From: Escherichia phage vB_EcoM_phAPEC6
Sequence record: MK817115.1
Direction: 5' to 3' (one strand)
DNA: 64,000 bases
Shown: positions 37,387 through 59,882 of the stretch, piece after piece
Numbering within the stretch: the stretch's first letter is position 1
Layout: every line of letters starts with the position of its first letter
Notes under the pieces: model-generated
Database searches by the model: none
What the model was told of the DNA's origin: nothing
Seen by the model: the letters and a program-made list of their open reading frames with translations, nothing else
Position numbers and translations under genes: made by a program

Positions 37387-37391
37387 CGAAT

Positions 37392-42791: not shown

Positions 42792-43192
42792 ACTTTACCA
42801 GGGAAGTGTTTCTCGTAGTACTCATCATCACTTAACATATAATCAGGAGTTTCTACTTCTATGGTTTTGAAGATTGTTTCTGGAATGTGTGTGACTTTAT
42901 TGGGTTGTACTTTATGTTCGCGTAAAACCTTCTGTATCGCTCCTAGACGTTGTAAATCGATACATGTAGGAAAGACTAAGCTGTACTGAAATAACTCATC
43001 AGGGGTCATTATAGACACATCTTTAGCTTGTTTGATTTGATAATTAGTACTAATGAATATATCAAATCCTTGTACAGCATTATAGCTTACATAGGTTGTT
43101 TTATTTTTGTCAATAGGAGCACTTAAACGATATCCATATATCCCGTGTTGGTCAACAAGACAGCGTTGCATAATTTTAATCATTTCTAACAT
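42779..43192 (-). CDS. EE-FQ family paralogue
   Basis: PDELFQYSLVF. Confidence 0.55.
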   Translation of the reverse strand: MLEMIKIMQRCLVDQHGIYGYRLSAPIDKNKTTYVSYNAVQGFDIFISTNYQIKQAKDVSIMTPDELFQYSLVFPTCIDLQRLGAIQKVLREHKVQPNKVTHIPETIFKTIEVETPDYMLSDDEYYEKHFPGKVWRD

Positions 43193-43538
43193 AATTTACC
43201 TCATATGTATTGTAACACCACGGTTTAACAATATCGATTTGTATATCATTTGCTTCATGAAAATGTTTAAGTACCTTCTGGTATTCCATTATTTCGTACA
43301 CATCTTCAGTACTTATAGTGCTCTCCTGAAATAATTCCTCTTCTGATAAAGTACTATAATCAGGGATTTTTATTTCTGAATATATATCATTTATCTTTCC
43401 ATTATATTGATAAATCTGGATATAAAATTGATTGTATTCTGGAATATAGGTTACATAATGGTTGTGGTTGATTACATATCTTGAAACAAAGTATTCAGTA
43501 CCATCAGTCATGTACTGAATTGTTGTCGTATTTTGCAT
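43176..43538 (-). CDS. EE-FQ family paralogue
   Basis: EEELFQESTIS. Confidence 0.55.
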   Translation of the reverse strand: MQNTTTIQYMTDGTEYFVSRYVINHNHYVTYIPEYNQFYIQIYQYNGKINDIYSEIKIPDYSTLSEEELFQESTISTEDVYEIMEYQKVLKHFHEANDIQIDIVKPWCYNTYEVNYVRND

Positions 43539-43998
43539 TCAAATAATCCACGCATTTATAGTATACTGCTAAATCTAAAAAGAATCGTTGTTTGTATTTG
43601 TAATGATGAAGTAGTGCACCATAAAATAACATAGCATTAAGTACTTTTGTATCATTAATCAATGATTTCTGAAAGTACATTTCCTCTGACATGAATACTA
43701 AATCATTATATGGAACTTGTACTGCTTCTCTAAATGTATCAATATTAATCTTCAAATCAGACCCAGGGCAATATGAAATGTATTCTGCTTTGTAATGAAA
43801 GTCATTATTATCAAAGTACTCCGCGTAGATTTGATTACCTCTACCATTAGTAAATGCTAGTCTTCCTTTAGATGAACTGAACTCATCGTATTGAAACATA
43901 CCACCAAAAGGTTTAGGACTTCTGAACTCCTTTGCAATGCGATAGATATTTTCTGCAAATTCTAAAACACCATCGTAATCATATTCTGTAGTAATCAT
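43504..43998 (-). CDS. EE-FQ family paralogue
   Basis: EEMYFQKSLIND. Confidence 0.55.
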   Translation of the reverse strand: MITTEYDYDGVLEFAENIYRIAKEFRSPKPFGGMFQYDEFSSSKGRLAFTNGRGNQIYAEYFDNNDFHYKAEYISYCPGSDLKINIDTFREAVQVPYNDLVFMSEEMYFQKSLINDTKVLNAMLFYGALLHHYKYKQRFFLDLAVYYKCVDYLNAKYDNNSVHD

Positions 43999-44471
43999 AA
44001 ACCATTTTTCTCCAGGTACTCAATAATACAATCGACATTGTTCAGGTCCAAGTAGAAATGATCACTATCGGAATTTAGTTCATTTTTAAGGGCTGTTAAA
44101 ATCACTGAACTGAAAACAATCCTCTCTGGATACACAGTACTGTACTGGAAGAACTCTTCTTCAGTGTTAATTACAATCGTATCAAATGCTTCATTTATAA
44201 GAAGATGATTGTAGTATTTGAAATTATCTGAACTTGGGAAATGGTATGAAATAAAATCACCACTTGGTACTTCATCAAGCACTCTAATACTACAAGTTGA
44301 TTCATCTGAGCTATAGAGTAACCCATCCATAAAGGAAAGATATCCATTTCGTTTAATAACTTTATTTTTATCAATTAAAAAATCTTCAGTAACATTCGCA
44401 AGGAATTTATAAACCCTGATAATGTCTTTTGCTATTTTTTGTGCATTGCTAAATGATAGGTCTTTGGACAT
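43995..44471 (-). CDS. EE-FQ family paralogue
   Basis: EEEFFQYSTVYP. Confidence 0.55.
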   Translation of the reverse strand: MSKDLSFSNAQKIAKDIIRVYKFLANVTEDFLIDKNKVIKRNGYLSFMDGLLYSSDESTCSIRVLDEVPSGDFISYHFPSSDNFKYYNHLLINEAFDTIVINTEEEFFQYSTVYPERIVFSSVILTALKNELNSDSDHFYLDLNNVDCIIEYLEKNGL

Positions 44472-44530
44472 TGTGTTATAACCCTTTACAATTAATATAA
44501 AGGGATTATATCACAAAAAATCGGTGGGTG

Positions 44531-45115
44531 TCAAGAGTGGTTGCGAAGTTCTACCATTTCTTCCCAAACTAATTGGTAATCTTCTAAGTCCAGATAGAAG
44601 TCTTCATTCCAGTGCTCATGAAAGTACTTATACATGAATAGAACTCCTAAATCGTATGCAGGAAACAATAATGATAGTTGAAAGTAGTATTCCTGATTTA
44701 AAACTATATCAATAAACTCTAATGTACGTATGCCACCTTTCGATGAACGTATCTCAATGTGTGAGGTATCCTTCATACTGTAACACATGAAACCACCTCT
44801 AAATTCTGGATCATATTCACATTCGAACTGCTCACTGTTGTTATAGAAATCTCTCCCACTTTCTTGATCTTTCGGTCTACGTACTGATACATGAATATTT
44901 TTATCACGGTACATTGAACGATTTAGTATTTTCAAACATTTGAACTTATCTTCTTTAATGAACTTGATAATATCAATTATATCTTGTGCTGTACTGATAG
45001 CTGATTCGAATGTATCCAACTTAAGATGATTATATTGGGTTCCAGAGTTCATTTTTTTATCTAACATATAAACCTCATAATTCATACATTTTTGATTTGA
45101 ACTGCATATGACCAC
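44531..45115 (-). CDS. EE-FQ family paralogue
   Basis: QEYYFQLSLLF. Confidence 0.55.
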   Translation of the reverse strand: MVICSSNQKCMNYEVYMLDKKMNSGTQYNHLKLDTFESAISTAQDIIDIIKFIKEDKFKCLKILNRSMYRDKNIHVSVRRPKDQESGRDFYNNSEQFECEYDPEFRGGFMCYSMKDTSHIEIRSSKGGIRTLEFIDIVLNQEYYFQLSLLFPAYDLGVLFMYKYFHEHWNEDFYLDLEDYQLVWEEMVELRNHS

Positions 45116-45416
45116 CTATTTCACATGGATAACAATTCATAATTTTGTTCAATAGAATCTGGTATTTTTTAATAACTTCTATATCAATTTTTATATTACT
45201 ATTAAAAACTAATGATTCTTGAAATAATTCCCCCTCGTCAAGTGAAGTAAAATCATTTATCTTCAAGGGTATATTGTTGCATCGCAAGGAGAATGTATTT
45301 TCATCACGAATTAAAGTATAGAAATCATTATGTTTTTTATTATAATCAAATTTAACAAGTAGTAGTTTAATATGAGTAGCGTACATTACTTTAACTAATT
45401 CAGATTCACGTCGCAT
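45075..45416 (-). CDS. EE-FQ family paralogue
   Basis: EGELFQESLVFN. Confidence 0.55.
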   Translation of the reverse strand: MRRESELVKVMYATHIKLLLVKFDYNKKHNDFYTLIRDENTFSLRCNNIPLKINDFTSLDEGELFQESLVFNSNIKIDIEVIKKYQILLNKIMNCYPCEIGGHMQFKSKMYEL

Positions 45417-45838
45417 ACAATACCTCTCTTATGATGCAAACATTCTTGCATAATGTGTTGTATTTTTCGTAACAGAAACACATCCAGTTCATTAAAAACA
45501 GTACTGTACTGGAACATCTCTTCTTCCCCGTACTCAGTTAAATCATCAATTTCATCTCTAGAAACAGCTACAATATTAAAACCACGTGTACTACAATAAC
45601 CCTTAGTAAGATAATATATGTACTTGTACTCTCCGTTGATATCTAAGAGATCTTGTGTGATACAGAAGCTTTTGGGTGACAGTTTATCATCAGGAACCAT
45701 ATGCCTTGCTTGTACATAGCAACGGATACCATCACCTATACTATATGTAATAACTTCAAATTCAATCTTCATAGGTGAATATAATCCTTTTATATTGCTC
45801 AGGTGCAGTACTGAAACGTTTGATTGGATAATTATCAA
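45395..45838 (-). CDS. EE-FQ family paralogue
   Basis: EEEMFQYSTVFN. Confidence 0.55.
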   Translation of the reverse strand: MIIIQSNVSVLHLSNIKGLYSPMKIEFEVITYSIGDGIRCYVQARHMVPDDKLSPKSFCITQDLLDINGEYKYIYYLTKGYCSTRGFNIVAVSRDEIDDLTEYGEEEMFQYSTVFNELDVFLLRKIQHIMQECLHHKRGIVCDVNLN

Positions 45839-46124
45839 AGATTCTTTTCATTTCTTTCTGGATTAAACATAAGAAATCAAAGTTACAATCGTACTTATTA
45901 TCCCATACTAAACTTTCTTGGAATAACTCATCCTCTTGCATTAGTGTAGTGTCAATTACATCTTCACGGACATAGCTATATACTTCATAGCTCTTGAAGC
46001 CATCTTCTGATAATTCTAATTCATATGCAGCCATATCAAACATATCATCATGGTTTGTCTTCAAAGATATTAAACAAGTAACTAATTTTTTAGTTGTATA
46101 GTATGTAATACTTAATGTGTTCAT
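45762..46124 (-). CDS. EE-FQ family paralogue
   Basis: EDELFQESLVWD. Confidence 0.55.
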   Translation of the reverse strand: MNTLSITYYTTKKLVTCLISLKTNHDDMFDMAAYELELSEDGFKSYEVYSYVREDVIDTTLMQEDELFQESLVWDNKYDCNFDFLCLIQKEMKRIFDNYPIKRFSTAPEQYKRIIFTYED

Positions 46125-46129
46125 TTGTT

Positions 46130-46732
46130 TTATACCTCAGTATATAGCTTACAATAGCTTTCATCGAAATTACAAACACTTCTCAAGTACTGACACAGGT
46201 CATTGAAAATATTTACATTTGATATATATACATTATCAAATTCTGTTCGTTGAAAGAATGTATACATAGAATTTGTAATATATCGCATTGCATCTTCACG
46301 TCCCATAGTTATATCATTTGTGAACATTGCATCTTCATCAGTACTGATGTGTTCTATTTTAAATGATTTCATAAATGGAATACTCTTTCCTAGGGCATAA
46401 CCATCACCATATGATGCTTCTACTGCACCTTTGGAATAAAGGAATTGATATAAGTCCGAATCACGATTATAAAAAGTACGACATACGGAGGAACATAATT
46501 TATTATCTATATGAAATAAAAATCTTTTAGCATTTTTGTCTAATACTATTCGCAATGCATCACTCTCTAGAAATATATCACCATCAAGCATAAATGAGAA
46601 CTGTACTAATGCTTTTTCTAAATCCGCTCGTTTGTGATAAATCATTTCCTGCATATATATAATATCATTTGCTAATTTCTTAAAAAACAAATGCACATCT
46701 GCACTACAACATTTATTTGCATTTATTGACAT
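46130..46732 (-). CDS. hypothetical protein, divergent EE-FQ-like
   Basis: DEDAMFTNDITMG. Confidence 0.45.
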   Translation of the reverse strand: MSINANKCCSADVHLFFKKLANDIIYMQEMIYHKRADLEKALVQFSFMLDGDIFLESDALRIVLDKNAKRFLFHIDNKLCSSVCRTFYNRDSDLYQFLYSKGAVEASYGDGYALGKSIPFMKSFKIEHISTDEDAMFTNDITMGREDAMRYITNSMYTFFQRTEFDNVYISNVNIFNDLCQYLRSVCNFDESYCKLYTEV

Positions 46733-47283
46733 AATAGTTCCTTATACATATGATGTACTTTACAAATCTCATTATAGTATTTCATATCAATGTCATTTGT
46801 ATTAAAAACGGAAACAGACAATACTGCTAACTTATCAATTAAGTAATTATTATCGGCGTACTGTTTTAACTTATTGAACATATAGATGCATTTTATACTT
46901 AATTCATCATGCAACACACTGTTCTGAAAAATATTCTCTTCAGTATTAGGAGATAAGTAATCTTCAATTATATACGATAAACTACTATCGCAATCTTTAT
47001 AGATTGAAATTGATGGATGTAATGTGTCATACATTACACTAAACAGATCACCGTCATATGTGGATATTAAACTATTATTGGAAACAGTAGGATGATAATA
47101 TTTCAGTACTGAAAACTTTGAACAATCAGTGCAGTAAAAATGATCCATCCCTCGACGACTTTCGTATGAGAATAGTTTACTTGTATATTCAATCCCTTTG
47201 GTGCGACGGATTGTTTCATGCATTTCTGCACATTGCATTAAAATTACCATACGTTCAAACGCAAGATCTAAATCATCGTACAT
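46723..47283 (-). CDS. EE-FQ family paralogue
   Basis: EENIFQNSVLHD. Confidence 0.55.
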   Translation of the reverse strand: MYDDLDLAFERMVILMQCAEMHETIRRTKGIEYTSKLFSYESRRGMDHFYCTDCSKFSVLKYYHPTVSNNSLISTYDGDLFSVMYDTLHPSISIYKDCDSSLSYIIEDYLSPNTEENIFQNSVLHDELSIKCIYMFNKLKQYADNNYLIDKLAVLSVSVFNTNDIDMKYYNEICKVHHMYKELLCQ

Positions 47284-47464
47284 AACGGATATCCTTCTTC
47301 AACGAATTAATATATTCCAAAATAACTTGTTCCTGATATTGGGTTCCCAAGTACATCAGTACTTTCAACTCTTTGAATTCAGTACTATATGAGTCTGTTT
47401 GCATCATTCTAGTAGAATATATATTGAATAGTTTAGCAATATCATCTTGGTCTATTATTTTCAT
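47273..47464 (-). CDS. LGT-QE family small protein (dispersed copy)
   Basis: LMYLGTQYQEQVILEYINSL. Confidence 0.5.
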   Translation of the reverse strand: MKIIDQDDIAKLFNIYSTRMMQTDSYSTEFKELKVLMYLGTQYQEQVILEYINSLKKDIRYVR

Positions 47465-47660
47465 TAACCCTCTTCTGTATTAGTTCCTGTAAGTGCTGAA
47501 TATAACCCTTCATTGCAACATCCTGTTTGTTAGAGCCAACGAAGAACAAGAGCTTAAAGTCATGGTAATCCATTTTTGGTTTAGTAGTGAACCATATGTC
47601 CCACACTGCACTCACAGTTCTCATGTATTCAATTCGATTAAATGTTTTTGAATACTTCAT
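47442..47660 (-). CDS. LGT-QE family small protein (divergent)
   Basis: LFFVGSNKQDVAMKGYIQHL. Confidence 0.45.
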   Translation of the reverse strand: MKYSKTFNRIEYMRTVSAVWDIWFTTKPKMDYHDFKLLFFVGSNKQDVAMKGYIQHLQELIQKRVNENNRPR

Positions 47661-48174
47661 CGATGTTCATTGCCAATAAGTTAATATACAAATTACTGTT
47701 AAATGCTATCTGCAATTCCATATAGAACTGAATGATTGCATAGTCAGGGTCAGTACACGATAGTTGAAAACACTGTTCGTCGAATGCATTGTAATTGTAC
47801 TTAGGGATGTGAATTTCACGCTTCAAATCAGGTTGCCCCCACTTCATCGCGTACACACCAATGTTATTGTTCTTTTTCCTTTTCTTAAATGTTAATTGTT
47901 GAATATTTCCTGCGTTATCCAGGAAAATAGAATTATTCGACACAGGTGCACCAATAGAAAACAATGATGTATCAATTACGTGTTTCTCACGTACATCACA
48001 CTTCTGAAATGCACCTGTACCCTGTAATACACGATGAAAATTGTACTTCTCATTAACAACAGTACTAGGATCAATTAAACCAGTACTGCATTTTTTGAGT
48101 ACTGGTACGATGATACGAATCTTTTTTGATAAATCTTGTAATGCATCAAAGTCATTGATGTTAACTTTCATCAC
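47638..48174 (-). CDS. EE-FQ family paralogue
   Basis: DEQCFQLSCTD. Confidence 0.5.
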   Translation of the reverse strand: MMKVNINDFDALQDLSKKIRIIVPVLKKCSTGLIDPSTVVNEKYNFHRVLQGTGAFQKCDVREKHVIDTSLFSIGAPVSNNSIFLDNAGNIQQLTFKKRKKNNNIGVYAMKWGQPDLKREIHIPKYNYNAFDEQCFQLSCTDPDYAIIQFYMELQIAFNSNLYINLLAMNIDEVFKNI

Positions 48175-48620
48175 TCAAATGTGGCCTCTTCAGTAGTAAC
48201 AAAATTGATTAGTGTATCCAGTTCAGCAGTGTCAAGATAAAATACATCCAGTACTGATTTCTGATATATTACACTGAATGTGCATAGATTGTCAAGCGTT
48301 CCTTGTTCATAAACAGTACTACCCTGGAAGTACCCTTCTTCAGTACTCAGGGATAAAATGTCTGAAATTTTAAAAGATTCTTCAGTCGCATGTCTTTCTA
48401 TATTAACTAAATGTCCGTTTCGGTTCAATGAAATATAATCGTATGCTAACTCAATTAGACTATAATTATCCGCATTAGTGTCAAATAAAGCGACAATTTT
48501 TCGTCTCAATCTCTCATCGTGATCATGGTTTTCATCAGCTAAGTATTCAGGATTTTCTTTGAAGAACTTAACAACTTTTAGAATATCATTTGCTTTCTTG
48601 ATTGCACTTTCGTAACTCAT
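48171..48620 (-). CDS. EE-FQ family paralogue
   Basis: EEGYFQGSTVYE; N-terminus MSYESAIKKANDIL. Confidence 0.55.
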   Translation of the reverse strand: MSYESAIKKANDILKVVKFFKENPEYLADENHDHDERLRRKIVALFDTNADNYSLIELAYDYISLNRNGHLVNIERHATEESFKISDILSLSTEEGYFQGSTVYEQGTLDNLCTFSVIYQKSVLDVFYLDTAELDTLINFVTTEEATFE

Positions 48621-48925
48621 AATAATTCAACCACTCCATCTCTAAAGTACATATAACTACCACCATTGGATACTGTGAATTCTATTGTCCCCAATAATAT
48701 ATTATATTTTTTTATTTCACATGTAGTACTTGTAGTGTAAGGCTCACCATCTCCTAAGTACATTGACATATGACATAGAACTTTTCTACCAGCATATTTC
48801 TCTTCAAACGATTGTTCAAAACTATGCATAATTTGATTTAAAGCTGAAATGTAATTAATAAAGTCAGGTATTTCTGTCAATGAATTATAAACCGTACAAA
48901 GTGAATCAAATTCATTTTTAGTCAT
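48617..48925 (-). CDS. small helix+beta family protein (family C)
   Basis: FEEKYAGRKVLCHM. Confidence 0.5.
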   Translation of the reverse strand: MTKNEFDSLCTVYNSLTEIPDFINYISALNQIMHSFEQSFEEKYAGRKVLCHMSMYLGDGEPYTTSTTCEIKKYNILLGTIEFTVSNGGSYMYFRDGVVELL

Positions 48926-49239
48926 TATATTTCTATCTCAATGTAATCCTGTGTGATTAAGTAATCCCAATGATACTTCACCTGCTTTTGTAATTCAATT
49001 AACGTAAAGAAGTTGATCGATTTATCCCATACGAGCGATTCCTGGAAAATAAATGATTCATGTTCATCGTAATAATCACACTCTAAAAAATCAGGTATAT
49101 ATTCACTATCGTGAATGTATTCAACAAACGAACTAGCTTGGCATTTCTTTACTACTAGTAATAATGAATTATCATGATCAAACAGATACAATAAACTAAT
49201 TTCACCAGGGACGTACTGAACACTGAATAAGTTTTTCAT
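48925..49239 (-). CDS. EE-FQ family paralogue
   Basis: ESFIFQESLVWD. Confidence 0.55.
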   Translation of the reverse strand: MKNLFSVQYVPGEISLLYLFDHDNSLLLVVKKCQASSFVEYIHDSEYIPDFLECDYYDEHESFIFQESLVWDKSINFFTLIELQKQVKYHWDYLITQDYIEIEI

Positions 49240-49688
49240 TCTATACCTTCTGGATCTTTACGAAGTTCTTCGAAATCCAAATAAAATCGAGGACAGTTAA
49301 CACTCTTTAAATACCACATAATAACTAATGCTTCAAGTACTTCATCATCGTAAACAGTACTGTTTTGGAAGTAATACTCTTCACTATCCCACGGACCATC
49401 CAGTACTTCATAATTCAAAATTAATGGTTTTTTGCGATTAATAAAACGAATGCTACCATTTTCAACATAACTAATAAATTCTGCATCTCTATTGTATTCA
49501 GAAAACGATATAGGACTATTGGAATTCAACCCAAGAATAACCCTTACACCAACGGAGTTATTATACATTTCATCTTTGTAGTAGTTGCCGTTCTCGGCTT
49601 TGTACACTTCTTTGAACTTTCCTGCCTTTATATCGTCAAAGTATCCATGTAGTTCTTTTGCTTTTTCAAGAGCACTTTGTAATGACAT
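49236..49688 (-). CDS. EE-FQ family paralogue (recent tandem duplicate 1 of 5)
   Basis: MSLQSALEKAKELH ... EEYYFQNSTVYD ... VIMWYLKS. Confidence 0.6.
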   Translation of the reverse strand: MSLQSALEKAKELHGYFDDIKAGKFKEVYKAENGNYYKDEMYNNSVGVRVILGLNSNSPISFSEYNRDAEFISYVENGSIRFINRKKPLILNYEVLDGPWDSEEYYFQNSTVYDDEVLEALVIMWYLKSVNCPRFYLDFEELRKDPEGIE

Positions 49689-50154
49689 TACCTTCTCCTA
49701 CAGTATTCTCTACATATTCATAATCAAAATAGAAACTACTGGAGTCAATACTTTTGAAATACCACATAATCACAATAACATCCAGTTCTTCTTCATTGTA
49801 CAACGTACTATTCTGGAAGTAATACTCTTCACTATCCCACGGACCTTCTAGTACTGAATAAGGAATGATAGTGTCATCAGCATCACTATCTGTGTTGTAG
49901 ATGGTAATATCTTCATTACGGCAATAACTAATGTACTGATTGTACATATGATATTCACAGTTATCACTGTCACCAGTATCAGTGTGCAGTACTAATGTTT
50001 CTGCACATATCTCGGACTCGTCATAATCGTCACGGTCTTTTACAAAAAATTCAGTATCAGATGTTTTATATACACCTGGAACTGAACCTTCTTGTACCAT
50101 AATCATATACTCATGAATCTTCTTTGCTTCTTTCAATGCACTTTGTAACGACAT
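49666..50154 (-). CDS. EE-FQ family paralogue (recent tandem duplicate 2 of 5)
   Basis: MSLQSALKEAKKIH ... EEYYFQNSTLYN. Confidence 0.6.
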   Translation of the reverse strand: MSLQSALKEAKKIHEYMIMVQEGSVPGVYKTSDTEFFVKDRDDYDESEICAETLVLHTDTGDSDNCEYHMYNQYISYCRNEDITIYNTDSDADDTIIPYSVLEGPWDSEEYYFQNSTLYNEEELDVIVIMWYFKSIDSSSFYFDYEYVENTVGEGNVITKCS

Positions 50155-50597
50155 TACAAATCCCCTGAACTTAAATATTCACATGCTCCCCAGTCAAGAA
50201 AGAATGGTTCAAAATTCAATTCCTTAAAGTACCACAACACAACCAAGGAATCAAGCATTTCTTGGTTAAAAATGAAACTCTGTTGGAAGTAATACTCTTC
50301 AGTACCCCACGGGCCATCAAGTACCCCGAAGTCAACAGGTGCATTTGATGTGTCAAACGTAATCTTAGTACCTGGAATATATACAAAAAAACTAGTATAT
50401 TGACTACATGAAGAGTACTGTATAGTATTGTCTTTATCCTGTCCCATAAGTAAAATATCATCAGAGTATGTCTTTATACCTGATAGATAATACTCATCAC
50501 CAAATGCACTTACTTTATCACCATAGAACCCACTTTTTATGTTATCGTGGAAGTGATGTATTCTGTGTGCTAGTTCAAGTGCACTTGCTAAACTCAT
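50154..50597 (-). CDS. EE-FQ family paralogue (recent tandem duplicate 3 of 5)
   Basis: MSLASALELAHRIH ... EEYYFQQSFIFN. Confidence 0.6.
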   Translation of the reverse strand: MSLASALELAHRIHHFHDNIKSGFYGDKVSAFGDEYYLSGIKTYSDDILLMGQDKDNTIQYSSCSQYTSFFVYIPGTKITFDTSNAPVDFGVLDGPWGTEEYYFQQSFIFNQEMLDSLVVLWYFKELNFEPFFLDWGACEYLSSGDL

Positions 50598-51064
50598 ATA
50601 TCCTCTTTAATAACTCGTAGTAGATCCAAGTCCAAATAGAAGCTAGGACAATCTGTATTATTAAAGTACCACAGAATGACAAGCTTGTCAAGTACATCTT
50701 CCTCGTAGATAGTATTCTGCTGGAAGTAGTACTCTTCACTTCCCCAGTCATTATCCAGTACTGAATACGGAAGATGTTTCTCTGCTGCACCAGATATAAT
50801 GTCAGAATCTTGTATTAAAATATCAGCATCACGACAGAAGTACATGTAATTATCTTCCAAATTAACATCACACCCATTGAGTGTTGTTTCAGAAGAATCT
50901 AAGTTTTCTTCATACATGTGAATGTACTCACTACTGTCATCGTATCTCATTCGACAATAAGATTTACCTTCCTTGAATAGATATCCATTGAGACAATTTG
51001 CTACAATTTCTTTGCTGCATAAATCAATTAACTTCGCAATCTCTAATGCTCTTTCTAAACTCAT
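50594..51064 (-). CDS. EE-FQ family paralogue (recent tandem duplicate 4 of 5)
   Basis: MSLERALEIAKLID ... EEYYFQQNTIYE. Confidence 0.6.
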   Translation of the reverse strand: MSLERALEIAKLIDLCSKEIVANCLNGYLFKEGKSYCRMRYDDSSEYIHMYEENLDSSETTLNGCDVNLEDNYMYFCRDADILIQDSDIISGAAEKHLPYSVLDNDWGSEEYYFQQNTIYEEDVLDKLVILWYFNNTDCPSFYLDLDLLRVIKEDI

Positions 51065-51065
51065 T

Positions 51066-51557
51066 TTAACCCCTGTTAATACCGTTATCTACAGTTTTCT
51101 TTACGTATTTGTAATCGAAATAGAAGTTCCCAGAACCAATACTTTTAAAGTACCACATAATTATAATAACATCAAGTACTTCATTATCGTATACAGTACT
51201 TTGTTGGAAGTAATACTCTTCACTATCCCACGGACCTTCCAGTACTTCACTCGGAATTATAATGTCATCGGAATCGCTATCAGTACTGTAGATGGTATCT
51301 GTATCATTAATATAGACCATGTACTCATTATGCATATTAATGAAGCATTCATAATCATTAGGGTCGGTATCCAGTACACACGTTTCTGTATCCAGTACGC
51401 ACGTTTCTGTATCTGAGCAGTCATTATAAAGGAGGTTATCCGGTACATAATATTGAGTACTTGTGTCTTTGAAAACACCGTAAACTGAACCTTCTTTTGC
51501 CATATTCATGTACTCATGAATCTTCTTTGCTTTTTCCAATGAACTCTGTAATGTCAT
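51066..51557 (-). CDS. EE-FQ family paralogue (recent tandem duplicate 5 of 5)
   Basis: MTLQSSLEKAKKIH ... EEYYFQQSTVYD; carries internal 7-aa duplication DTETCVL. Confidence 0.6.
   Translation of the reverse strand: MTLQSSLEKAKKIHEYMNMAKEGSVYGVFKDTSTQYYVPDNLLYNDCSDTETCVLDTETCVLDTDPNDYECFINMHNEYMVYINDTDTIYSTDSDSDDIIIPSEVLEGPWDSEEYYFQQSTVYDNEVLDVIIIMWYFKSIGSGNFYFDYKYVKKTVDNGINRG
51370..51411. repeat. 21-bp tandem direct repeat (2 units, 1 mismatch), in-frame within 51066..51557
   Basis: tccagtacacacgtttctgta / tccagtacgcacgtttctgta. Confidence 0.8.
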
Positions 51558-51566
51558 TTTATAATC

Positions 51567-51926
51567 TCATATATTGAAATAATAATTATTCGTTCTTGAT
51601 GGGGATGGATTAAATACGTTTTCTTTTTCAAATCTCTTCATTTCATTTTGCAAAGAAACCATTTCTTCAAATGTACAGGAGTACTTATTCTTATCAAACA
51701 CTAATGCAGCCTGAAATAGTTCACCATCGTCCAGTACTGTATAATCTATAAGACTCTCAGATTCATAGTCATAGTCGTCATGTGATACATGAATAAATTT
51801 AAAACAAGAATCTTTGTAATGCATATATAAACTCAACTCATGTTCCGAGTCGCCCTTAATAAGATTACAGCACAAGTCCCATCCTTTAGGTAACTTATAA
51901 TAGTACATAGAATAATCATATGTCAT
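51567..51926 (-). CDS. EE-FQ family paralogue (short subfamily)
   Basis: DDGELFQAALVFDKNKYSCTFEEM. Confidence 0.55.
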   Translation of the reverse strand: MTYDYSMYYYKLPKGWDLCCNLIKGDSEHELSLYMHYKDSCFKFIHVSHDDYDYESESLIDYTVLDDGELFQAALVFDKNKYSCTFEEMVSLQNEMKRFEKENVFNPSPSRTNNYYFNI

Positions 51927-52279
51927 TCTTGAATTCCTAAATTGAATTTGTATTCTTGATTAATACTTGCATTGGGTTTATGCAAAGCAGCATACTCTTT
52001 CATTTCATTTTGTATTGCAATAACTTCTTCAAATGTACACAAGTACTTCTTATCAAATACTAATGATTCTTGGAATAGTTCTGCGGTATCCATTAATGTA
52101 TAGTCCGGCATATCTTGGTGTGGATACTGTAATGAACTGTAATCAATGAATGTAAATTTACCCTGAGTGTAATGAATATACTCATTTGCACTGTGCATTA
52201 AATCACCTTTGTTTAAATTACAAAAGTACTGATAACTGTGCTTGAAAGTATGTACTGATATTAAAAAATCAAATTCCAT
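51923..52279 (-). CDS. EE-FQ family paralogue (short subfamily)
   Basis: DTAELFQESLVFDKKYLCTFEEV. Confidence 0.55.
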   Translation of the reverse strand: MEFDFLISVHTFKHSYQYFCNLNKGDLMHSANEYIHYTQGKFTFIDYSSLQYPHQDMPDYTLMDTAELFQESLVFDKKYLCTFEEVIAIQNEMKEYAALHKPNASINQEYKFNLGIQE

Positions 52280-52291
52280 CAGTACTCAACC
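52210..52291. repeat. 82-bp direct repeat, copy A (5' end of gene 51923..52279)
   Basis: Near-identical to 52729..52810 (2 mismatches by eye). Confidence 0.75.
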
Positions 52292-52650
52292 TCTACATAA
52301 ATAGATTCAGGAAACTTAGTCATATAATCTTCTGGATAGTTCTGCATTACTTTGATCATTTCTGCCTGTGTAGCACGGACGTATTCAATTGGTGCTCCTG
52401 GTAAATTCCAGACAGTACTTTCCTGAAAGAATTCCTCTTCTGACAGTACTGTCAGATTTACAAAATCATTACGGTAATTTTTTGAATCATCATATGTGAA
52501 GATTTTAAAAGACCCATTTTCATATAGTACAAGAACAAAATGGGAGAATTTTTGTAATGCACCACCAAGGCTTTCCACGACCGCATGATTCAGTGTACAG
52601 ATGACCTCTTTTTTCCTCATACCGAATTGAATTCTAATTTCTTTTTTCAT
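52279..52650 (-). CDS. EE-FQ family paralogue (short subfamily)
   Basis: SEEEFFQESTVWN. Confidence 0.55.
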   Translation of the reverse strand: MKKEIRIQFGMRKKEVICTLNHAVVESLGGALQKFSHFVLVLYENGSFKIFTYDDSKNYRNDFVNLTVLSEEEFFQESTVWNLPGAPIEYVRATQAEMIKVMQNYPEDYMTKFPESIYVEVEY

Positions 52651-52651
52651 A

Positions 52652-52808
52652 AAATCTCCTTCAGATTAGTACTGAATTTGTACAGAATATTAGAACTGTA
52701 TACAGCCTCTGTATCTGTATCCATAATCAAATCACCTTTGTTTAAATTACAAAAGTACTGATAACTGTGCTTAAAAGAATGTACTGATATTAAAAAATCA
52801 AATTCCAT
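52652..52808 (-). pseudogene. remnant ORF (52 aa): duplicated N-terminus of an EE-FQ short-subfamily gene
   Basis: Own translation MEFDFLISVHSFKHSYQYFCNLNKGDLIMDTDTEAVYSSNILYKFSTNLKEIL; first 27 aa almost identical to N-terminus of 51923..52279; overlaps neighbours at both ends. Confidence 0.5.
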
Positions 52809-52810
52809 CA
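52729..52810. repeat. 82-bp direct repeat, copy B
   Basis: aaatcacctttgtttaaattacaaaagtactgataactgtgctt...tcaaattccatca. Confidence 0.75.
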
Positions 52811-53185
52811 CTCTTCCCCTAGATTGAAATGATTACAAAAATCATCTTCACCAGTACTGCACCAGATATCTATACATTCCCTGTGAATACATTTAATTCT
52901 ACGCTGTAATTCAATCATCTCTTCTAATGTACAGATGTACTTCTTATCAAATACTAATGCCGCCTGAAACAGTGCAGCATCATCAAGTACTGTATAGTCC
53001 AACATCTCGGTTGCTTTACCCCTAAACCCAGTACTAAAATCCATCAAATAAAAGTCAGCATTCCAGTACTTTAAAATCTTGTCCCTAGCGTAGTTTAAAT
53101 CACCCTTGTATAAGTTAGAGTGCGTAACTAACTCACCAGTGTACATCCATGTCCTTGCACAAAATTCATTATATTTTATTTCCAT
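52808..53185 (-). CDS. EE-FQ family paralogue (short subfamily)
   Basis: DDAALFQAALVFDKKYICTLEEM; start set at MEIKYNEF (track start 53293 over-extended). Confidence 0.5.
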   Translation of the reverse strand: MEIKYNEFCARTWMYTGELVTHSNLYKGDLNYARDKILKYWNADFYLMDFSTGFRGKATEMLDYTVLDDAALFQAALVFDKKYICTLEEMIELQRRIKCIHRECIDIWCSTGEDDFCNHFNLGEE

Positions 53186-53381
53186 CTTAATCTCTACTAT
53201 AATTAATAAGGTAAACTCCAATATAAGGAGCACGTTGCGGGGGCGGGGTATTTTTTGTTTCAGGAAACATGAACTGTACTCTGAAAAACACAATATAAAA
53301 CTTTATATTAAACATATACCTTAGCATGTTTTTCAGCGGAAATTTTTTTGACCCCCTGCGGCCTGTCAAAACGAAACGTCT

Positions 53382-53606
53382 CTATTTATTCAGCCTAGAA
53401 ACCTTGATTTCTTCAATCCTTTTCATTGCACAAAGCCTTCGACTCGTCCTCTCGTATATATTCAATACTCGCTGTAATGCATTATCTGTATTATCTGCAA
53501 CTGCAATCTGAACCAAATATGTATCCTTCAAAATAGAATCCATCATGAATTCAAAACCTTTCACACTAAAGCAATATGCCACTTCCGGCTCTTCAAACGT
53601 AATCAT
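53382..53606 (-). CDS. hypothetical protein
   Basis: ORF track. Confidence 0.4.
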   Translation of the reverse strand: MITFEEPEVAYCFSVKGFEFMMDSILKDTYLVQIAVADNTDNALQRVLNIYERTSRRLCAMKRIEEIKVSRLNK

Positions 53607-53796
53607 AATTCCAATCCCCTATTCCCTCTAACCTTCTAAGATATCTTGCGTAAATTATTTCGAAATATCTGTGCAACGAAATTACGGATTGCTCATAATC
53701 ATCATTCCTGTACATTGTGCATGTCAGAAAATCATTTAACCCAAAATCTAAACTGCACTTGAACTTCTCCTTAGCAACATCTCTAAAATTATTCAT
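53593..53796 (-). CDS. hypothetical protein
   Basis: ORF track. Confidence 0.4.
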   Translation of the reverse strand: MNNFRDVAKEKFKCSLDFGLNDFLTCTMYRNDDYEQSVISLHRYFEIIYARYLRRLEGIGDWNYDYV

Positions 53797-53978
53797 AATA
53801 TGTCCTCTGTACAGCGTAGGTGTACTGTGAACTCAGCACCACTAATAGGTAATCTATATTGTAAGCACGATTTCCTCGTTGACTAGCACGGCTGGAATAA
53901 AGAATATTATCCACATATGTATTGAACTGATCTTCAAATAACTCTTTCATCAGCATTATACCATCACATAATCATACA

Positions 53979-54531
53979 TCATACATTAACAACTTTATCG
54001 ATGTAATCTTCTAACATATCAATATATCTGGTATTGGTTCTAACTAAAAGGTATGCAAATCCAGAGAACTCCTGTGTATAATGCTTTACAGCGTACATAC
54101 AACGAAGCTTATCATTGTCATACATTGTACTGTACTGAAACAAACTCTCGTCTGATAGCTCTAATAACGCTTGGGCTTCACTTCTCGTGAACTTCATAGG
54201 GTCATGTACTGCATCACAAAAACAAACCTGTGTCTCGCTATTGAAACCCTGTGATAGATATATACCTTCACACTCTGAACGCACCGATACTGCATTATAA
54301 CTATGTGTTGCCCCCATCATATCTGAACTCAAAACTAAAATCAACCCATTTTTATTTTTAATCAACAAATCTGACTTAAGGGATTTGATCTCCGTATGGG
54401 AAATATCACCAAATCTTCCTGGGACTTCAAACTTATCAACGTTGTATACAATCTTTTGTACTTGCTCTTTTAAACGCTTAATTGCACTTCTGTCTTTTTC
54501 TAATGTATCTAATAAACTCATTGAACTCATT
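53979..54531 (-). CDS. EE-FQ family paralogue
   Basis: DESLFQYSTMYD; start set at MSSMSLLDTLEK, matching the family N-terminus. Confidence 0.5.
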
Positions 54532-54540
54532 GTACTTTCC

Positions 54541-54882
54541 TTACATATTTGTACCGAACAAAACGGAACTGCGAACGTCATTGATCGACAATTCATGTAC
54601 ATATATATTTTGTCTGAACAAAGGAACTAATTGAACTAAACTTTGTTGCATAACAATATGCATATGTAAATTGTCATATGCCGTTTCGTATTGGAAACGT
54701 GCTGCTTCATCTTCTATGAAATTAGGAACTTGGACTGGATTTTCAAAATTTGTTCTTGAACTGAACTGCACATCATTATCCTGTACTTTAATACCATATG
54801 CATTATCATCATCATATACATCTAATTCAATTAAACTACCATCACTTTTTATGTTTACCACACAAACCGAAAATCGACTCAT
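54541..54882 (-). CDS. EE-FQ family paralogue
   Basis: EAARFQYETAYD. Confidence 0.5.
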   Translation of the reverse strand: MSRFSVCVVNIKSDGSLIELDVYDDDNAYGIKVQDNDVQFSSRTNFENPVQVPNFIEDEAARFQYETAYDNLHMHIVMQQSLVQLVPLFRQNIYVHELSINDVRSSVLFGTNM

Positions 54883-55394
54883 AAACCTATTTCCTCTAAA
54901 TCTTTGACAAATGTATCATAATCCGATAATGACAAAAATATGTCTGTACTGATGTTTTGACGTAATGTATTAAACAAATTATGTACCTGTAATAAATCAG
55001 GTGCATAAATCAGGGATTGCTGGAAATACGATTCTTCTGTATCTAATATATCCCTGCACTCAATTTCACGAACTCGTTGGTATATTGAATTTAATAATAC
55101 ATTTTCATCTTTGAGCATTGGAAGGTATCTGATGTACATGTGCTCCATCAACTCATCCTGGATTGAACCCCTGAACTGCAACACGTATTCAAAACACATC
55201 ACTACATCTTGTAGGTAATTGGCACTGTAATTATTGCTGTAAACAATCTTATGACTTCTGAACTCATCATCATTTCTGAACCAATCGTCACCCACTTTGG
55301 TGTACTTATGACTAAGCTTCCCATCCTCCAACGCTCGAATGAACTTCATAATGTTAATTGCAAAATCATATGAATGATGCTTGTGTTGATGCAT
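54879..55394 (-). CDS. EE-FQ family paralogue
   Basis: EESYFQQSLIYA. Confidence 0.55.
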   Translation of the reverse strand: MHQHKHHSYDFAINIMKFIRALEDGKLSHKYTKVGDDWFRNDDEFRSHKIVYSNNYSANYLQDVVMCFEYVLQFRGSIQDELMEHMYIRYLPMLKDENVLLNSIYQRVREIECRDILDTEESYFQQSLIYAPDLLQVHNLFNTLRQNISTDIFLSLSDYDTFVKDLEEIGL

Positions 55395-55402
55395 TTTTTA
55401 CC

Positions 55403-55597
55403 TCAATTCTGTCCGAAAAAATAACCAAAATGTTTAAAACAAGAAAGCATTACTATGTTCATCACTCTATCATCAAATTCATCTTGTGTTTCTGCACATA
55501 ATGTTTCACAGATATTCAAATGTAATAATTCAAGCTGGAAACTGTCGGTGAACCAATCAAACTTACGGTATTTTTGTTTAACATCAACTGTAAGCAT
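55403..55597 (-). CDS. small hypothetical protein
   Basis: ORF track. Confidence 0.4.
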   Translation of the reverse strand: MLTVDVKQKYRKFDWFTDSFQLELLHLNICETLCAETQDEFDDRVMNIVMLSCFKHFGYFFGQN

Positions 55598-55598
55598 A

Positions 55599-56222
55599 CT
55601 ATATATCCAACCCTTTTACAACATCTACGAAATGTTCAAACACTTCTTTTGAAAAATAACCACCTTCACAAAAAAGCATACTAAACGGTGGCAGCATGTC
55701 CGATAACTCTTTAGCTAAATTGATTTCTGCTCTTAACTCTTGAACATCAATGATATCATGTACTAACGATAATTGAAACATGAATGCATCTACATCTTCA
55801 TTCATTTCTGAATTGTAATATAACTCTTCAGGGAATTTGTCGGTTTCGTAATAATAAAAAACTTTATTGTTGAACACACCACTAATAGGAACATCATTTT
55901 CATCTTTCTTTGAAATGTTTGTTTCCCATGACTCTATATTATTAGGAACAAAAAAATCATAGGCTGATTTTGAACCCTGTACTGAATCCAACTTTATTCC
56001 ATAATATTCCGTATCCATGTATTTCTGCTGTAATGTAATACCACGTGTACTGACATTCACTTGGAATATATCATCTTTATCTGGAACACTAAATGGAATA
56101 CATAACACTGAATTCTCAGGGTATTTGGCAATGAATGCATCCAGCACTTTATTAAGCACCGGAATGGCAATTTTACTGTACTGCATCAAATCATACATTT
56201 TAATTCTGGTCATATCATTCAC
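55599..56222 (-). CDS. EE-FQ family paralogue
   Basis: DAFMFQLSLVHD. Confidence 0.55.
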   Translation of the reverse strand: MNDMTRIKMYDLMQYSKIAIPVLNKVLDAFIAKYPENSVLCIPFSVPDKDDIFQVNVSTRGITLQQKYMDTEYYGIKLDSVQGSKSAYDFFVPNNIESWETNISKKDENDVPISGVFNNKVFYYYETDKFPEELYYNSEMNEDVDAFMFQLSLVHDIIDVQELRAEINLAKELSDMLPPFSMLFCEGGYFSKEVFEHFVDVVKGLDI

Positions 56223-56742
56223 CTGTGTATGTTTTCACCCTTAGCGATTCAAAATCCCATACATCACTGATTGTACCATTGTGCCTGTAATCATAATATT
56301 CTACTAATACATTATACAATAACTTCAACGATACAAATTCATGATTCCACGGAGCTTTATTCTCATGAACACATTTGGTGATATAAGGTATAATATATAA
56401 ACTAAACAACACTAATGGTGAATGTATACATTGCATTTGAAAATATTCTTCTTCTTGCATACAATGCTCAGGAATAATCAATTCCGTATGTGACCCTAAG
56501 CTATACGAACCTGCTGTGTATTTTTTCGTATCACATGCGTACCATATTGTACTATCCGAAATAAATGGAATGATACCATTATTGTTTGCAATGTACATCA
56601 TATGGTAAGAGCGATTTGTCTTGTTAAATATCTCAATACTTTCGATATTACTACAAATCATGTATTCAATGCAATCAATAATCTTATCTTTAAATGCACC
56701 AATTTCATTGAATGTCATTGATTTCTGCACTTCACTGCTCAT
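56215..56742 (-). CDS. EE-FQ family paralogue
   Basis: EEEYFQMQCIHS. Confidence 0.55.
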   Translation of the reverse strand: MSSEVQKSMTFNEIGAFKDKIIDCIEYMICSNIESIEIFNKTNRSYHMMYIANNNGIIPFISDSTIWYACDTKKYTAGSYSLGSHTELIIPEHCMQEEEYFQMQCIHSPLVLFSLYIIPYITKCVHENKAPWNHEFVSLKLLYNVLVEYYDYRHNGTISDVWDFESLRVKTYTGE

Positions 56743-57281
56743 ATGTTCTCCTTAAAAAAATTCAAATACTCTTCATTGAAAGCATATGTATCATCTTTTT
56801 TGTTATGCACCACATAATCATAAAGAGCTATGAATGCAGGGATTATGATCTTACATGATTTATTATTGTATTTGTACTGCTCCAAATCAACGGTGTTCAA
56901 TTTAGCAATAAGCATAGCAGCAAAGATATCTTCATGGCGGTGTACTGTGCTGTACTGAAAATATTCATCCTCTCCAATATCGGGATGATATAACGGTATA
57001 ACCAAATTATTACGAATTGACATCTTATATTTTTGTAATGCAGCTAAATGTATGAACCACAATCTATCTTCATTGAAATATGGAAAAATAATTTTGTCTG
57101 TGCTAATAAAAATTTCTTCATTTCGATTATTTGTCACAAGAGGTGCATACATTTTAATTTTTGCAGATTTAATAATTAAATTAAAAATATAATGAATCTT
57201 ATGAACTGCACTTGATGCATCTTCGTATGTACTTGGGATTATGAAACTCACTATATGTTCTCCTTTAAAATGAATACACAT
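56739..57281 (-). CDS. EE-FQ family paralogue
   Basis: EDEYFQYSTVHR. Confidence 0.55.
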   Translation of the reverse strand: MCIHFKGEHIVSFIIPSTYEDASSAVHKIHYIFNLIIKSAKIKMYAPLVTNNRNEEIFISTDKIIFPYFNEDRLWFIHLAALQKYKMSIRNNLVIPLYHPDIGEDEYFQYSTVHRHEDIFAAMLIAKLNTVDLEQYKYNNKSCKIIIPAFIALYDYVVHNKKDDTYAFNEEYLNFFKENI

Positions 57282-57333
57282 GATAACAGCTTTGGTCTTC
57301 TATGTCAATACCAAAACGAAAAAAGCCCATATC

Positions 57334-57840: not shown

Positions 57841-58160
57841 AAAATTACCTCAACTAAAGCAAGGACTGTATTGAATTCCACTATACTTGTAATTCCTTGA
57901 AGGTACATATACTTTGCTACTACATATTTCTGTACTAAATTATAATTATTAAATTCCTCAAAATTGTAATTTAGAACAAAATCTGTACTCAAAAATATCT
58001 TATGCATCTCTAATGCACTTTGATAATACGCGTACAACTCACTGATATCAATACTGGTTAAATTATATTGTTCATATCTATGATACGGGATGGCTTCAAT
58101 TTCAATACTATAAAACCATTCTCTTAACTTATTAATATCAAATGTATTATTCAGCTTCAT
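57819..58160 (-). CDS. hypothetical protein
   Basis: ORF track. Confidence 0.45.
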   Translation of the reverse strand: MKLNNTFDINKLREWFYSIEIEAIPYHRYEQYNLTSIDISELYAYYQSALEMHKIFLSTDFVLNYNFEEFNNYNLVQKYVVAKYMYLQGITSIVEFNTVLALVEVILCSTCMI

Positions 58161-59734: not shown

Positions 59735-59882
59735 TAATGTTCTTCTCTTAAAAATCGTTTGATAGCATAATCTAAATAAAATTCATAACACATGCTATCT
59801 CTGTTCTTTATCCATATTTTGTAATCGGATTTTATATTACGCAACAAATAATTTGTATTAATTGTGTAATAATCTAATCGCC

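What the first reader, a model, noticed from the sequence alone, without database searches (positions are those of the whole stretch)
49236..51557. Five near-identical tandem paralogues with overlapping junctions and a 21-bp in-frame repeat
Five consecutive EE-FQ genes share an N-terminus (MSLQSALEKAKELH-like) and core (VLDGPWDSEEYYFQNSTVYD...IMWYFKS) far more closely than other family members. Their junctions overlap by 1-23 nt. The last copy carries a perfect-but-one 21-bp tandem duplication (51370..51411) that duplicates the heptapeptide DTETCVL. This indicates ongoing duplication or slippage and a likely recombination hotspot.
Basis: seen in the sequence. Interest (0 to 1): 0.6.

Follow-up and report, generated by a model that had tools for sequence, protein, structure and literature searches.

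The report
Old diverged five-gene phage paralogue block
Five neighbouring genes of a giant E. coli phage are old, well-diverged relatives, not near-identical copies; they belong to a family of at least 41 small acidic proteins of unknown function, in a region that related phages reshuffle by recombination, so the finding is real but fairly ordinary.

Summary
The window is an Asteriusvirus jumbo coliphage, 99.6% identical to PBECO4. The five head-to-tail minus-strand genes, their shared N-terminus and core motif, and the in-frame 21-bp tandem duplication are all real.

"Near-identical" is wrong. The copies share 29-60% amino-acid identity and 47-71% codon-aligned nucleotide identity. They still form a true subfamily (PHROG 9317) within a family of at least 41 members in this window.

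In sibling genomes the copies group by position, not by genome. The duplications therefore predate the genus radiation and are not ongoing. All five are under purifying selection.

What is ongoing:
- Slippage at the 21-bp unit: two units here, one in JP4, UE-S1 and A4.
- Gene loss or replacement: copy 5 or copy 1 is missing in some relatives.
- Mosaic exchange between related phages: dS differs more than 10-fold between adjacent copies.

The proteins give a confident model with no convincing PDB match and no curated family. They are very acidic, were not found in a related virion proteome, and lie in a long block studded with sigma70-like promoters. I infer early, cytoplasmic host-takeover or anti-defence binding proteins. 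That function is untested.

The parts
49236..49688 (-). Copy 1 (150 aa, pI 4.66). It overlaps the downstream gene 48925-49239 by 4 nt.
   Evidence: ORF. PHROG 9317 at E 5e-60. It has two allelic types about 69% identical among siblings: the 150-aa type in this window, 121Q and UE-S1, and a 147-aa type in SP27, Ecwhy_1, fEgEco12 and ph0011. It is absent from phage A4.
49666..50154 (-). Copy 2 (162 aa, pI 4.05, net charge -26). It overlaps the copy 1 start by 23 nt.
   Evidence: The AlphaFold2 model has pLDDT 89.7 and pTM 0.84. It is the closest paralogue of copy 5, at 60% amino-acid and 71% nucleotide identity.
50154..50597 (-). Copy 3 (147 aa, pI 4.25). It shares 1 nt with the copy 2 start (TAATG).
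   Evidence: Its orthologue group is present in every genome examined except Turkey5, where correspondence is unclear.
50594..51064 (-). Copy 4 (156 aa, pI 4.10). It overlaps the copy 3 start by 4 nt (ATGA).
51066..51557 (-). Copy 5 (163 aa, pI 4.05). A 1-nt spacer separates it from copy 4.
   Evidence: In fEgEco12, WPEC5 and ph0011 it is replaced by a 61-aa ORF plus an extra short family member. In SD-1_S14 it is broken by a 43-bp deletion.
51370..51411 (-). Two 21-bp units (GATACAGAAACGTG[C/T]GTACTG) followed by a partial third (GATAC). They are in frame and encode DTETCVL twice.
   Evidence: TRF. The polymorphism among sibling genomes is shown. The site aligns with the lowest-confidence internal stretch of the copy 2 model (residues 41-50, mean pLDDT 64) just before strand 52-57. 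This is also where the paralogues differ most in length.
57280..57308 (-). Nearest upstream near-consensus sigma70-type promoter (TTGACA-17-TATCAT with TG). A terminator-like hairpin at 57325-57346 lies just before it.
   Evidence: No site scoring 11/12 or better lies between it and the five genes.
44505..44534 (-). Next downstream perfect sigma70-type promoter (TTGACA-18-TATAAT with TG).
   Evidence: Across the window there are 17 such sites on the minus strand and 3 on the plus strand.
52197..52281 (-). First copy of an 85-nt direct repeat (96% identical): the 5' end of gene 51923-52279.
52726..52810 (-). Second copy of the 85-nt direct repeat. The two copies bracket a 529-bp cassette (gene 52279-52650 plus a 54-aa remnant ORF) that is missing from SP27, Ecwhy_1, fEgEco12 and UE-S1.
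21669..62006 (-). Extent of the 41-member 'EE-x-FQ-x-S' family in the window. All members are on the minus strand, and 40 lie within 33331-62006.
   Evidence: Iterated HMM search of all window ORFs of 50 aa or more. Motif list.

Best explanation
The five genes are an old tandem subfamily (PHROG 9317) of a lineage-specific multigene family. The family has at least 41 members in this window and is known only from Rak2-like jumbo phages. It encodes small, strongly acidic, soluble proteins that were not detected in virions.

The genes sit head to tail on one strand. They have Shine-Dalgarno-like sequences and overlapping or abutting stop and start codons, and no strong promoter or terminator between them. 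They are therefore probably co-transcribed from a host-type (sigma70-like) promoter and translationally coupled (inferred).

The five arose by tandem duplication before the Asteriusvirus lineages split. They have since diverged under purifying selection. Present-day variation comes from three processes: (i) replication slippage between short direct repeats, which adds or removes the 21-bp unit in a tolerant loop of copy 5; (ii) loss, disruption or replacement of whole genes; and (iii) homologous exchange between co-infecting relatives, which makes the block mosaic.

Function is inferred, not shown. Each protein shares a conserved C-terminal helical core around the invariant F-Q motif, joined to a hypervariable N-terminal and beta-sheet half. 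I think they are early cytoplasmic binding proteins that neutralise or redirect different host targets, either host takeover or anti-defence, possibly by mimicking nucleic acid given their charge.
For: Shown:
- Phage identity and the annotated genes.
- Divergence levels among the five.
- The five fall into position-specific orthologue groups in an NJ tree of 10 genomes.
- Copy number is 5, 4 or 3.
- dN/dS is 0.05-0.7 in nearly all comparisons, and dS is strongly heterogeneous between adjacent copies; for SP27 it runs 0.74, 0.21, 0.07, 0.05, 0.02.
- Identity to siblings is patchy across the whole region.
- The 21-bp indel is polymorphic among siblings.
- There is a 43-bp deletion in SD-1_S14 and an 85-nt repeat-bounded cassette nearby.
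- Junction sequences carry GGAG- or AGGA-like motifs.
- Near-consensus promoters number 17 on the minus strand against 3 on the plus strand, with none inside the block.
- pI is 4.05-4.66 and net charge -10 to -26.
- An exhaustive profile search of 1.84 billion representatives found only 115 hits. The 20 sampled clusters that carry names are all Asteriusvirus or Klebsiella Rak2-like phages, or roughly 350-kb 'E. coli' contigs.
- Foldseek matches are restricted to uncharacterised proteins of 121Q, RaK2, GAP32, Serratia BF and Yersinia fHe-Yen9-04.
- The phAPEC6 virion proteome lists nothing between gp347 and gp549, the interval that holds the array; gp426c is a family member (PMC7247149).
- The array lies upstream of nucleotide-metabolism genes on the same strand.
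Against: - There are no expression data for any Asteriusvirus, so 'early' rests on promoter consensus and strand asymmetry only.
- There is no binding, toxicity or defence-evasion data. The functional reading rests on charge, size, diversification and context, which also fit many other roles.
- Whole-gene dN/dS shows purifying rather than positive selection, so an arms-race signature is not demonstrated.
- Mosaicism is not shown to be greater here than elsewhere in the genome. Only about 8 kb was compared.
Confidence: 0.65

Rival explanations
1. These are recent, near-identical tandem duplicates still being amplified, a 'genomic accordion' in which copy number changes under selection.
For: The genes are arranged in tandem and have related sequences. 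One 1,002-bp metagenome contig (L016) reads end-of-copy-3, then a copy 2/copy 5 hybrid, then copy 4. An unequal crossover in a shared 28-nt stretch would produce exactly this.
Against: Nucleotide identity among the copies is 47-71%, with third positions near saturation. There are five position-specific orthologue groups. None of the 15 genomes examined has more than five copies. The hybrid is a single contig at 1.3x coverage and may be an assembly chimera through the 28-nt repeat; the other six cluster members have the normal copy 5 N-terminus.
Confidence: 0.04
2. The proteins are DNA-mimic anti-restriction or anti-defence proteins, each paralogue inhibiting a different host nucleic-acid-binding defence. 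This is a specific form of the main explanation.
For: The five have extreme negative charge and are the most acidic members of the family (pI 4.05-4.66, up to -26 net). They are small, non-enzymatic, not detected in virions, and probably early. Presence or absence varies between sibling phages.
Against: There is no sequence or fold similarity to Ocr, ArdA or other solved mimics. Acidity is common among phage early proteins. There is no positive-selection signal.
Confidence: 0.15
3. The proteins are packaged internal or ejected proteins like the T4 IP proteins, with the shared N-terminal helix acting as a capsid-targeting sequence.
For: The five share a conserved roughly 15-residue N-terminus. 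T4 IP loci are also hypervariable (my own knowledge of the T4 literature).
Against: The phAPEC6 virion proteome of 62 proteins contains nothing from this part of the genome. The N-terminal helix is predicted at pLDDT 94-97 as part of the confidently modelled fold (pTM 0.84), not as a detachable leader. Short family members lack it altogether.
Confidence: 0.05
4. The family members are adaptors that share a common docking partner through the conserved EE-x-FQ-x-S helix and recruit different targets through the variable half. One candidate partner is the phage's own HslV-like peptidase or protease encoded in the same window.
For: F-Q is invariant and the surrounding motif is conserved in all family members, while the rest of the protein is hypervariable. 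HslV-family peptidase and protease genes are annotated about 45 kb away in the same strand block.
Against: The motif lies in a helix inside the confidently modelled region and may simply be a fold determinant. There is no co-variation or interaction evidence.
Confidence: 0.08
5. The ORFs are decaying or non-functional remnants.
For: One sibling carries a frameshifted copy 5, and others lack copy 5 or copy 1.
Against: dN/dS is well below 1 in nearly all comparisons. The reading frames are intact in about 30 genomes. The fold prediction is confident. The gene starts are coupled and carry ribosome-binding sites.
Confidence: 0.03

Closest known systems
Hyperplastic regions of T4-type phage genomes: clusters of small early ORFans that are shuffled between relatives (Comeau, Krisch and colleagues; cited from my own knowledge)
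   Same: Both are a long run of small, same-strand genes of unknown function, probably early, next to nucleotide-metabolism genes. Gene content and alleles differ between close relatives, with mosaic exchange and repeat-bounded cassettes.
   Different: Here most of the ORFs are paralogues of one family (41 members) rather than unrelated ORFans. The genes abut or overlap, so there are no promoter and stem-loop cassettes between them.
Lineage-specific multigene families of large DNA viruses, for example the roughly 35-copy zinc-ribbon expansion in Bacillus phage G (PMC7824862) and the roughly 10% paralogous genes reported for RaK2 (PMC3622015)
   Same: Both are tandem arrays of divergent paralogues confined to one viral lineage, with unknown function and presumed to act at the host interface.
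   Different: This family is not described in those papers as far as I could find. It has its own motif, and its model has no convincing PDB match.
Poxvirus-type gene 'accordions' (K3L amplification; my own knowledge)
   Same: Both involve tandem paralogues in a large DNA virus.
   Different: Accordions are near-identical copies whose number changes within populations. These copies are 47-71% identical, and their number is stable apart from losses.
p32/gC1qBP/MAM33 acidic proteins

Membership tests
PHROG 9317 (phage protein family of unknown function) | Full-length match to the family HMM | tested here: met
   All five match at E 3e-55 to 9e-66 over essentially the whole profile.
'EE-x-FQ-x-S' superfamily of Rak2-like jumbo phages (defined here) | Invariant F-Q preceded by acidic residues and followed by x-S-x-(V/I/L)-aromatic, plus a match to a profile of the window's members | tested here: met
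   Motif list, alignment, and 41 ORFs at E 3e-9 to 1e-29.
Any curated protein family (Pfam-A, NCBIfam) or solved structure by sequence | Score above the curated cut-off, or a significant E-value | tested here: not met
   There are no Pfam hits above cut-off, no NCBIfam hits, and no PDB sequence hits at E up to 10.
Gene accordion or recent tandem amplification | Near-identical copies | tested here: not met
   Nucleotide identity is 47-71% and amino-acid identity is 29-60%.
Gene accordion or recent tandem amplification | Copy number rises and falls among closely related isolates | tested here: not met
   Copy number is 5 in most genomes, and 4 or 3 through loss or replacement. It is never above 5 in the 15 genomes examined. 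One ambiguous hybrid contig exists.
T4-type hyperplastic region | Cluster of small early genes whose content varies among close relatives | tested here: met
   Gene presence or absence and allele swaps are seen. 'Early' is inferred only from promoters.
T4-type hyperplastic region | Promoter plus stem-loop cassettes between the genes that mediate shuffling | tested here: not met
   The genes overlap or abut. There is no strong promoter or terminator within 49236-51557.
T4-like internal (packaged) proteins | Presence in the virion | tested here: not met
   The published phAPEC6 virion proteome has no entry between gp347 and gp549 (PMC7247149). This evidence is indirect because it comes from a sibling phage.
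p32/MAM33 fold family | Significant structural or sequence similarity | tested here: inconclusive
DNA-mimic anti-restriction proteins (Ocr, ArdA) | Strong negative surface charge | tested here: met
   pI is 4.05-4.66 and net charge is -10 to -26. This measures overall charge only; the surface distribution was not examined.
DNA-mimic anti-restriction proteins (Ocr, ArdA) | Fold or sequence relationship to known mimics, and binding to restriction enzymes | tested here: not met

The most novel reading that the evidence does not exclude
The family of at least 41 members, including these five, is a previously unrecognised protein scaffold with no solved structural relative, used by Rak2-like jumbo phages as a diversified repertoire of host-targeting or anti-defence binders. 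The invariant EE-x-FQ-x-S helix would provide a common core or docking function, and the hypervariable half would set target specificity. The five highly acidic paralogues would then be nucleic-acid mimics aimed at different host defences.
Probability: 0.2. Interest if true: 0.65.

Novelty: new member of a known kind. Interest (0 to 1): 0.3.

Why it matters
Jumbo phages carry hundreds of genes of unknown function. About 7% of the roughly 550 genes annotated in PBECO4 and its close relatives appear to belong to one uncharacterised family whose model has no convincing PDB match. If its members prove to be host-takeover or anti-defence proteins, the family would be a rich source of new inhibitors of bacterial functions. 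It would also help explain host-range differences among therapeutic Asteriusvirus isolates, which differ in exactly these genes. The five-gene block itself is a tidy example of old duplication followed by slippage, loss and mosaic exchange, but it is not surprising.

Tried and rejected
1. Gene conversion among the five. Copies 1, 2 and 5 share an exact 32-35-nt match at the motif. Codon identity at identical residues inside the motif is only marginally above the rest of the gene (binomial P 0.006-0.43, uncorrected for ten tests). Amino-acid conservation plus codon bias explains the match.

3. Sequence homology outside phages. The k-mer search found 12 proteins and the exhaustive profile search found 115. 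All sampled hits are from Rak2-like jumbo phages.

4. Literature. The PBECO4, 121Q, phAPEC6, Sharanji, fEgEco12, CBB and RaK2 papers and the jumbo-phage comparative review give no description of this family. They contain only general remarks on paralogues.

5. TEV-protease-like site. The motif E-x-x-Y-F-Q-(x)-S resembles ENLYFQ(S/G), but it lies in a helix with pLDDT above 95. I treated this as coincidence.

6. RNA elements. There are no Rfam families and no tRNAs in the window.

7. The copy 2/copy 5 hybrid contig as proof of unequal crossover. It is a single low-coverage contig, so it is left unresolved. A4's native copy 5 carries a similar N-terminus, which further complicates the reading.
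Full report
**What the window is.** The 2.3-kb region matches 33 phage records. All are Escherichia or Salmonella jumbo myoviruses of the Asteriusvirus group, and the best match is PBECO4 at 99.6%. G+C is about 32%. Almost all genes lie on the minus strand.

**The observation.** Five consecutive minus-strand ORFs occupy 49236-51557, with lengths of 150, 162, 147, 156 and 163 aa. The same five genes are annotated as hypothetical proteins in PBECO4, JP4, 121Q, UE-S1, Ecwhy_1, SP27 and CRJP21.
- They share the N-terminus MSLQSALEKAK... and the core VL(D/E)GPWDSEEYYFQ...(I/V)(M/L)WYF(K/N).
- The internal junctions overlap by 23, 1 and 4 nt. The copy 5/copy 4 junction instead has a 1-nt spacer.
- Each start is preceded by a GGAG- or AGGA-like sequence, which is normal translational coupling.
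- TRF finds the 21-bp repeat at 51367-51413, with 2.2 copies at 96% identity. It encodes DTETCVL twice.

**How similar the five are.** They are not near-identical.
- Amino-acid identity is 29-40% for nine pairs and 58-60% for copy 2 versus copy 5.
- Codon-aligned nucleotide identity is 47-55%, and 71% for the 2/5 pair. Third positions are only 40-48% identical, and 61% for 2/5.
- They are still a genuine subfamily. Other pairs among 30 family ORFs average 20%. All ten within-five pairs are in the top 19 of 435. All five hit PHROG 9317 at E below 1e-54, while their neighbours hit other PHROGs.

**The wider family.** A motif scan found 30 ORFs with the EE-x-FQ-x-S motif, and an iterated HMM found 41. 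All are on the minus strand, and 40 lie between 33.3 and 62.0 kb. F-Q is invariant, and the N-terminal halves are hypervariable.
- An exhaustive HMMER profile search of 1.84 billion representative proteins returned only 115 hits, all 65-210 aa long.
- Twenty sampled clusters come from Asteriusvirus phages, from roughly 350-kb 'E. coli' contigs that are evidently such phages, or, for the weaker hits, from Klebsiella phages RaK2, K64-1, Muenster and KP13-7.
- tblastn with copy 2 finds 35 phage records, all Escherichia or Salmonella jumbo phages, with 3-6 places each.

**Age of the duplications.** I collected the subfamily members from 15 genomes with an HMM of the five. An NJ tree groups them by position into five orthologue groups, not by genome. 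The duplications therefore predate the divergence of these phages, and there is no concerted evolution.
- Copy number is 5 in the window, PBECO4, JP4, CRJP21, 121Q, UE-S1, SP27, Ecwhy_1 and SD-1_S14.
- It is 4 in fEgEco12, WPEC5 and ph0011, where copy 5 is replaced by a 61-aa ORF plus an extra short family member.
- It is 4 in A4, which lacks copy 1 and has a different gene order, and 3 in Turkey5.
- SD-1_S14 has a 43-bp frameshifting deletion in copy 5.

**Selection and mosaicism.** Against the window, dN/dS is 0.05-0.7 in nearly all comparisons, which indicates purifying selection. The single value above 1 is CRJP21 copy 3 at 1.45, and it rests on very few changes.
- dS to one sibling differs more than 10-fold between adjacent copies. 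For SP27 it runs 0.74, 0.21, 0.07, 0.05 and 0.02. For Ecwhy_1 it runs 0.70, 0.56, 0.12, 0.13 and 0.01.
- Copy 1 exists as two allelic types that are 69% identical.
- A 150-bp sliding comparison shows the same patchwork over the whole 46-54.5 kb stretch, not just the five genes.
- So recombination between related phages is frequent here, but it is a property of the array as a whole.

**The 21-bp repeat.** The window, PBECO4, 121Q, SP27, Ecwhy_1, CRJP21 and SD-1_S14 have two units. JP4, UE-S1 and A4 have one. The paralogous copy 2 also has one unit.
- The duplication therefore arose within the PBECO4/121Q group.
- JP4 is sister to two-unit SP27 for this gene, so it has most likely lost a unit again.
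- In single-unit genomes a 5-nt direct repeat (GATAC) sits 21 nt apart, a typical slippage substrate.
- The site aligns with the least confident internal stretch of the copy 2 model and with the most length-variable part of the paralogue alignment. An extra heptapeptide there is plausibly tolerated (inference).

**A truly recent duplication lies just outside the finding.** An 85-nt direct repeat, 96% identical, sits at 52197-52281 and 52726-52810. It duplicates the 5' end of gene 51923-52279. The two copies bracket a 529-bp cassette that SP27, Ecwhy_1, fEgEco12 and UE-S1 lack. This is the clearest local signature of repeat-mediated gain or loss.

**A possible unequal crossover.** One 1,002-bp metagenome contig (L016) reads end of copy 3, then a gene with the copy 2 start and the copy 5 body, then copy 4. 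The switch lies in a 28-nt stretch shared by copies 2 and 5. This is what a duplication by unequal crossover would give. However, it is a single contig at 1.3x coverage, the other cluster members have normal N-termini, and A4's own copy 5 has a similar N-terminus. It may be an assembly chimera, and I leave it open.

**What the proteins are.**
- There are no Pfam or NCBIfam matches and no PDB sequence matches.
- AlphaFold2 with the 33-sequence family alignment gives a confident model of copy 2 (pLDDT 89.7, pTM 0.84). It has an N-terminal helix, seven short strands, three helices that include the FQ motif, a final strand and a final helix.
- Foldseek against viral models finds only uncharacterised proteins of 121Q, RaK2, Serratia BF, GAP32 and Yersinia fHe-Yen9-04.
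- The five are the most acidic family members, with pI 4.05-4.66 and net charge down to -26.

**Context.** Near-consensus sigma70 promoters (11/12 or better) number 17 on the minus strand against 3 on the plus strand. None lies inside the block; the nearest are at 57308-57280 upstream and 44534-44505 downstream. The array lies upstream, on the same strand, of PhoH, Nudix, Sir2, dCMP deaminase, DNA ligase, polynucleotide kinase and RNA ligase genes. The phAPEC6 virion proteome of 62 proteins contains nothing between gp347 and gp549, the interval that holds the array (PMC7247149). I therefore infer proteins that are transcribed by the host polymerase, probably early, and that are soluble and absent from virions.

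**Verdict.** The sequence features are real, but the title claim of near-identity and the inference of ongoing gene duplication are wrong. The block is an old, selectively maintained subfamily within a large lineage-specific family. It sits in a region that evolves by slippage, gene loss or replacement, and mosaic exchange. Function is unknown. My best guess, at low confidence, is diversified host-takeover or anti-defence binders, possibly nucleic-acid mimics. I found no paper describing the family. The genes are already deposited as hypothetical proteins and clustered in PHROGs.

Noticed in passing
window 52197-52281 and 52726-52810: An 85-nt direct repeat, 96% identical, duplicates the 5' end of gene 51923-52279. 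It brackets a 529-bp cassette (gene 52279-52650 plus a 54-aa remnant ORF at 52647-52811) that is absent from SP27, Ecwhy_1, fEgEco12 and UE-S1.
   Followed up: yes
window 21669-62006, minus strand: An iterated HMM finds 41 paralogues of one family with an invariant F-Q motif. That is roughly 7% of the phage's genes, packed mostly into about 29 kb.
   Followed up: partly
L016 (ENA ERZ1755840 NODE_6370, 1-1002): The contig reads end of copy 3, then a copy 2/copy 5 hybrid gene, then copy 4, with the switch in a 28-nt stretch shared by copies 2 and 5. It is either a rare unequal-crossover duplication or an assembly chimera. It is a single contig at 1.3x coverage.
   Followed up: partly
whole window: There are 17 near-consensus sigma70-type promoters (11/12 or better) on the minus strand and only 3 on the plus strand. 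This suggests real host-polymerase promoters spaced along the gene block.
   Followed up: partly
L004 (Salmonella phage SD-1_S14) about 4923-4926, equivalent to window about 51240-51285: A 43-bp deletion frameshifts copy 5 in this isolate only. It is either a pseudogene or a sequencing error.
   Followed up: partly
window 48171-48620 (motif EEGYFQGS) and all family members: The family motif E-x-x-(Y/F)-F-Q-x-S resembles the TEV protease recognition site ENLYFQ(S/G). It lies in a confidently predicted helix, so this is probably coincidence.
   Followed up: partly
L012 (phage A4) 2791-6302: In A4 the homologues of the two genes that follow copy 1 in the window lie upstream of copy 5 instead. A 56-aa ORF related to the fEgEco12 61-aa ORF precedes copy 5. 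Gene order within the array has been rearranged.
   Followed up: partly
window 50973-51416 and 49585-51851 region, plus strand: Long antisense ORFs (147 aa and 88 aa) overlap the five genes. I found no evidence that they code for protein, and the selection pattern fits the minus-strand frames.
   Followed up: no
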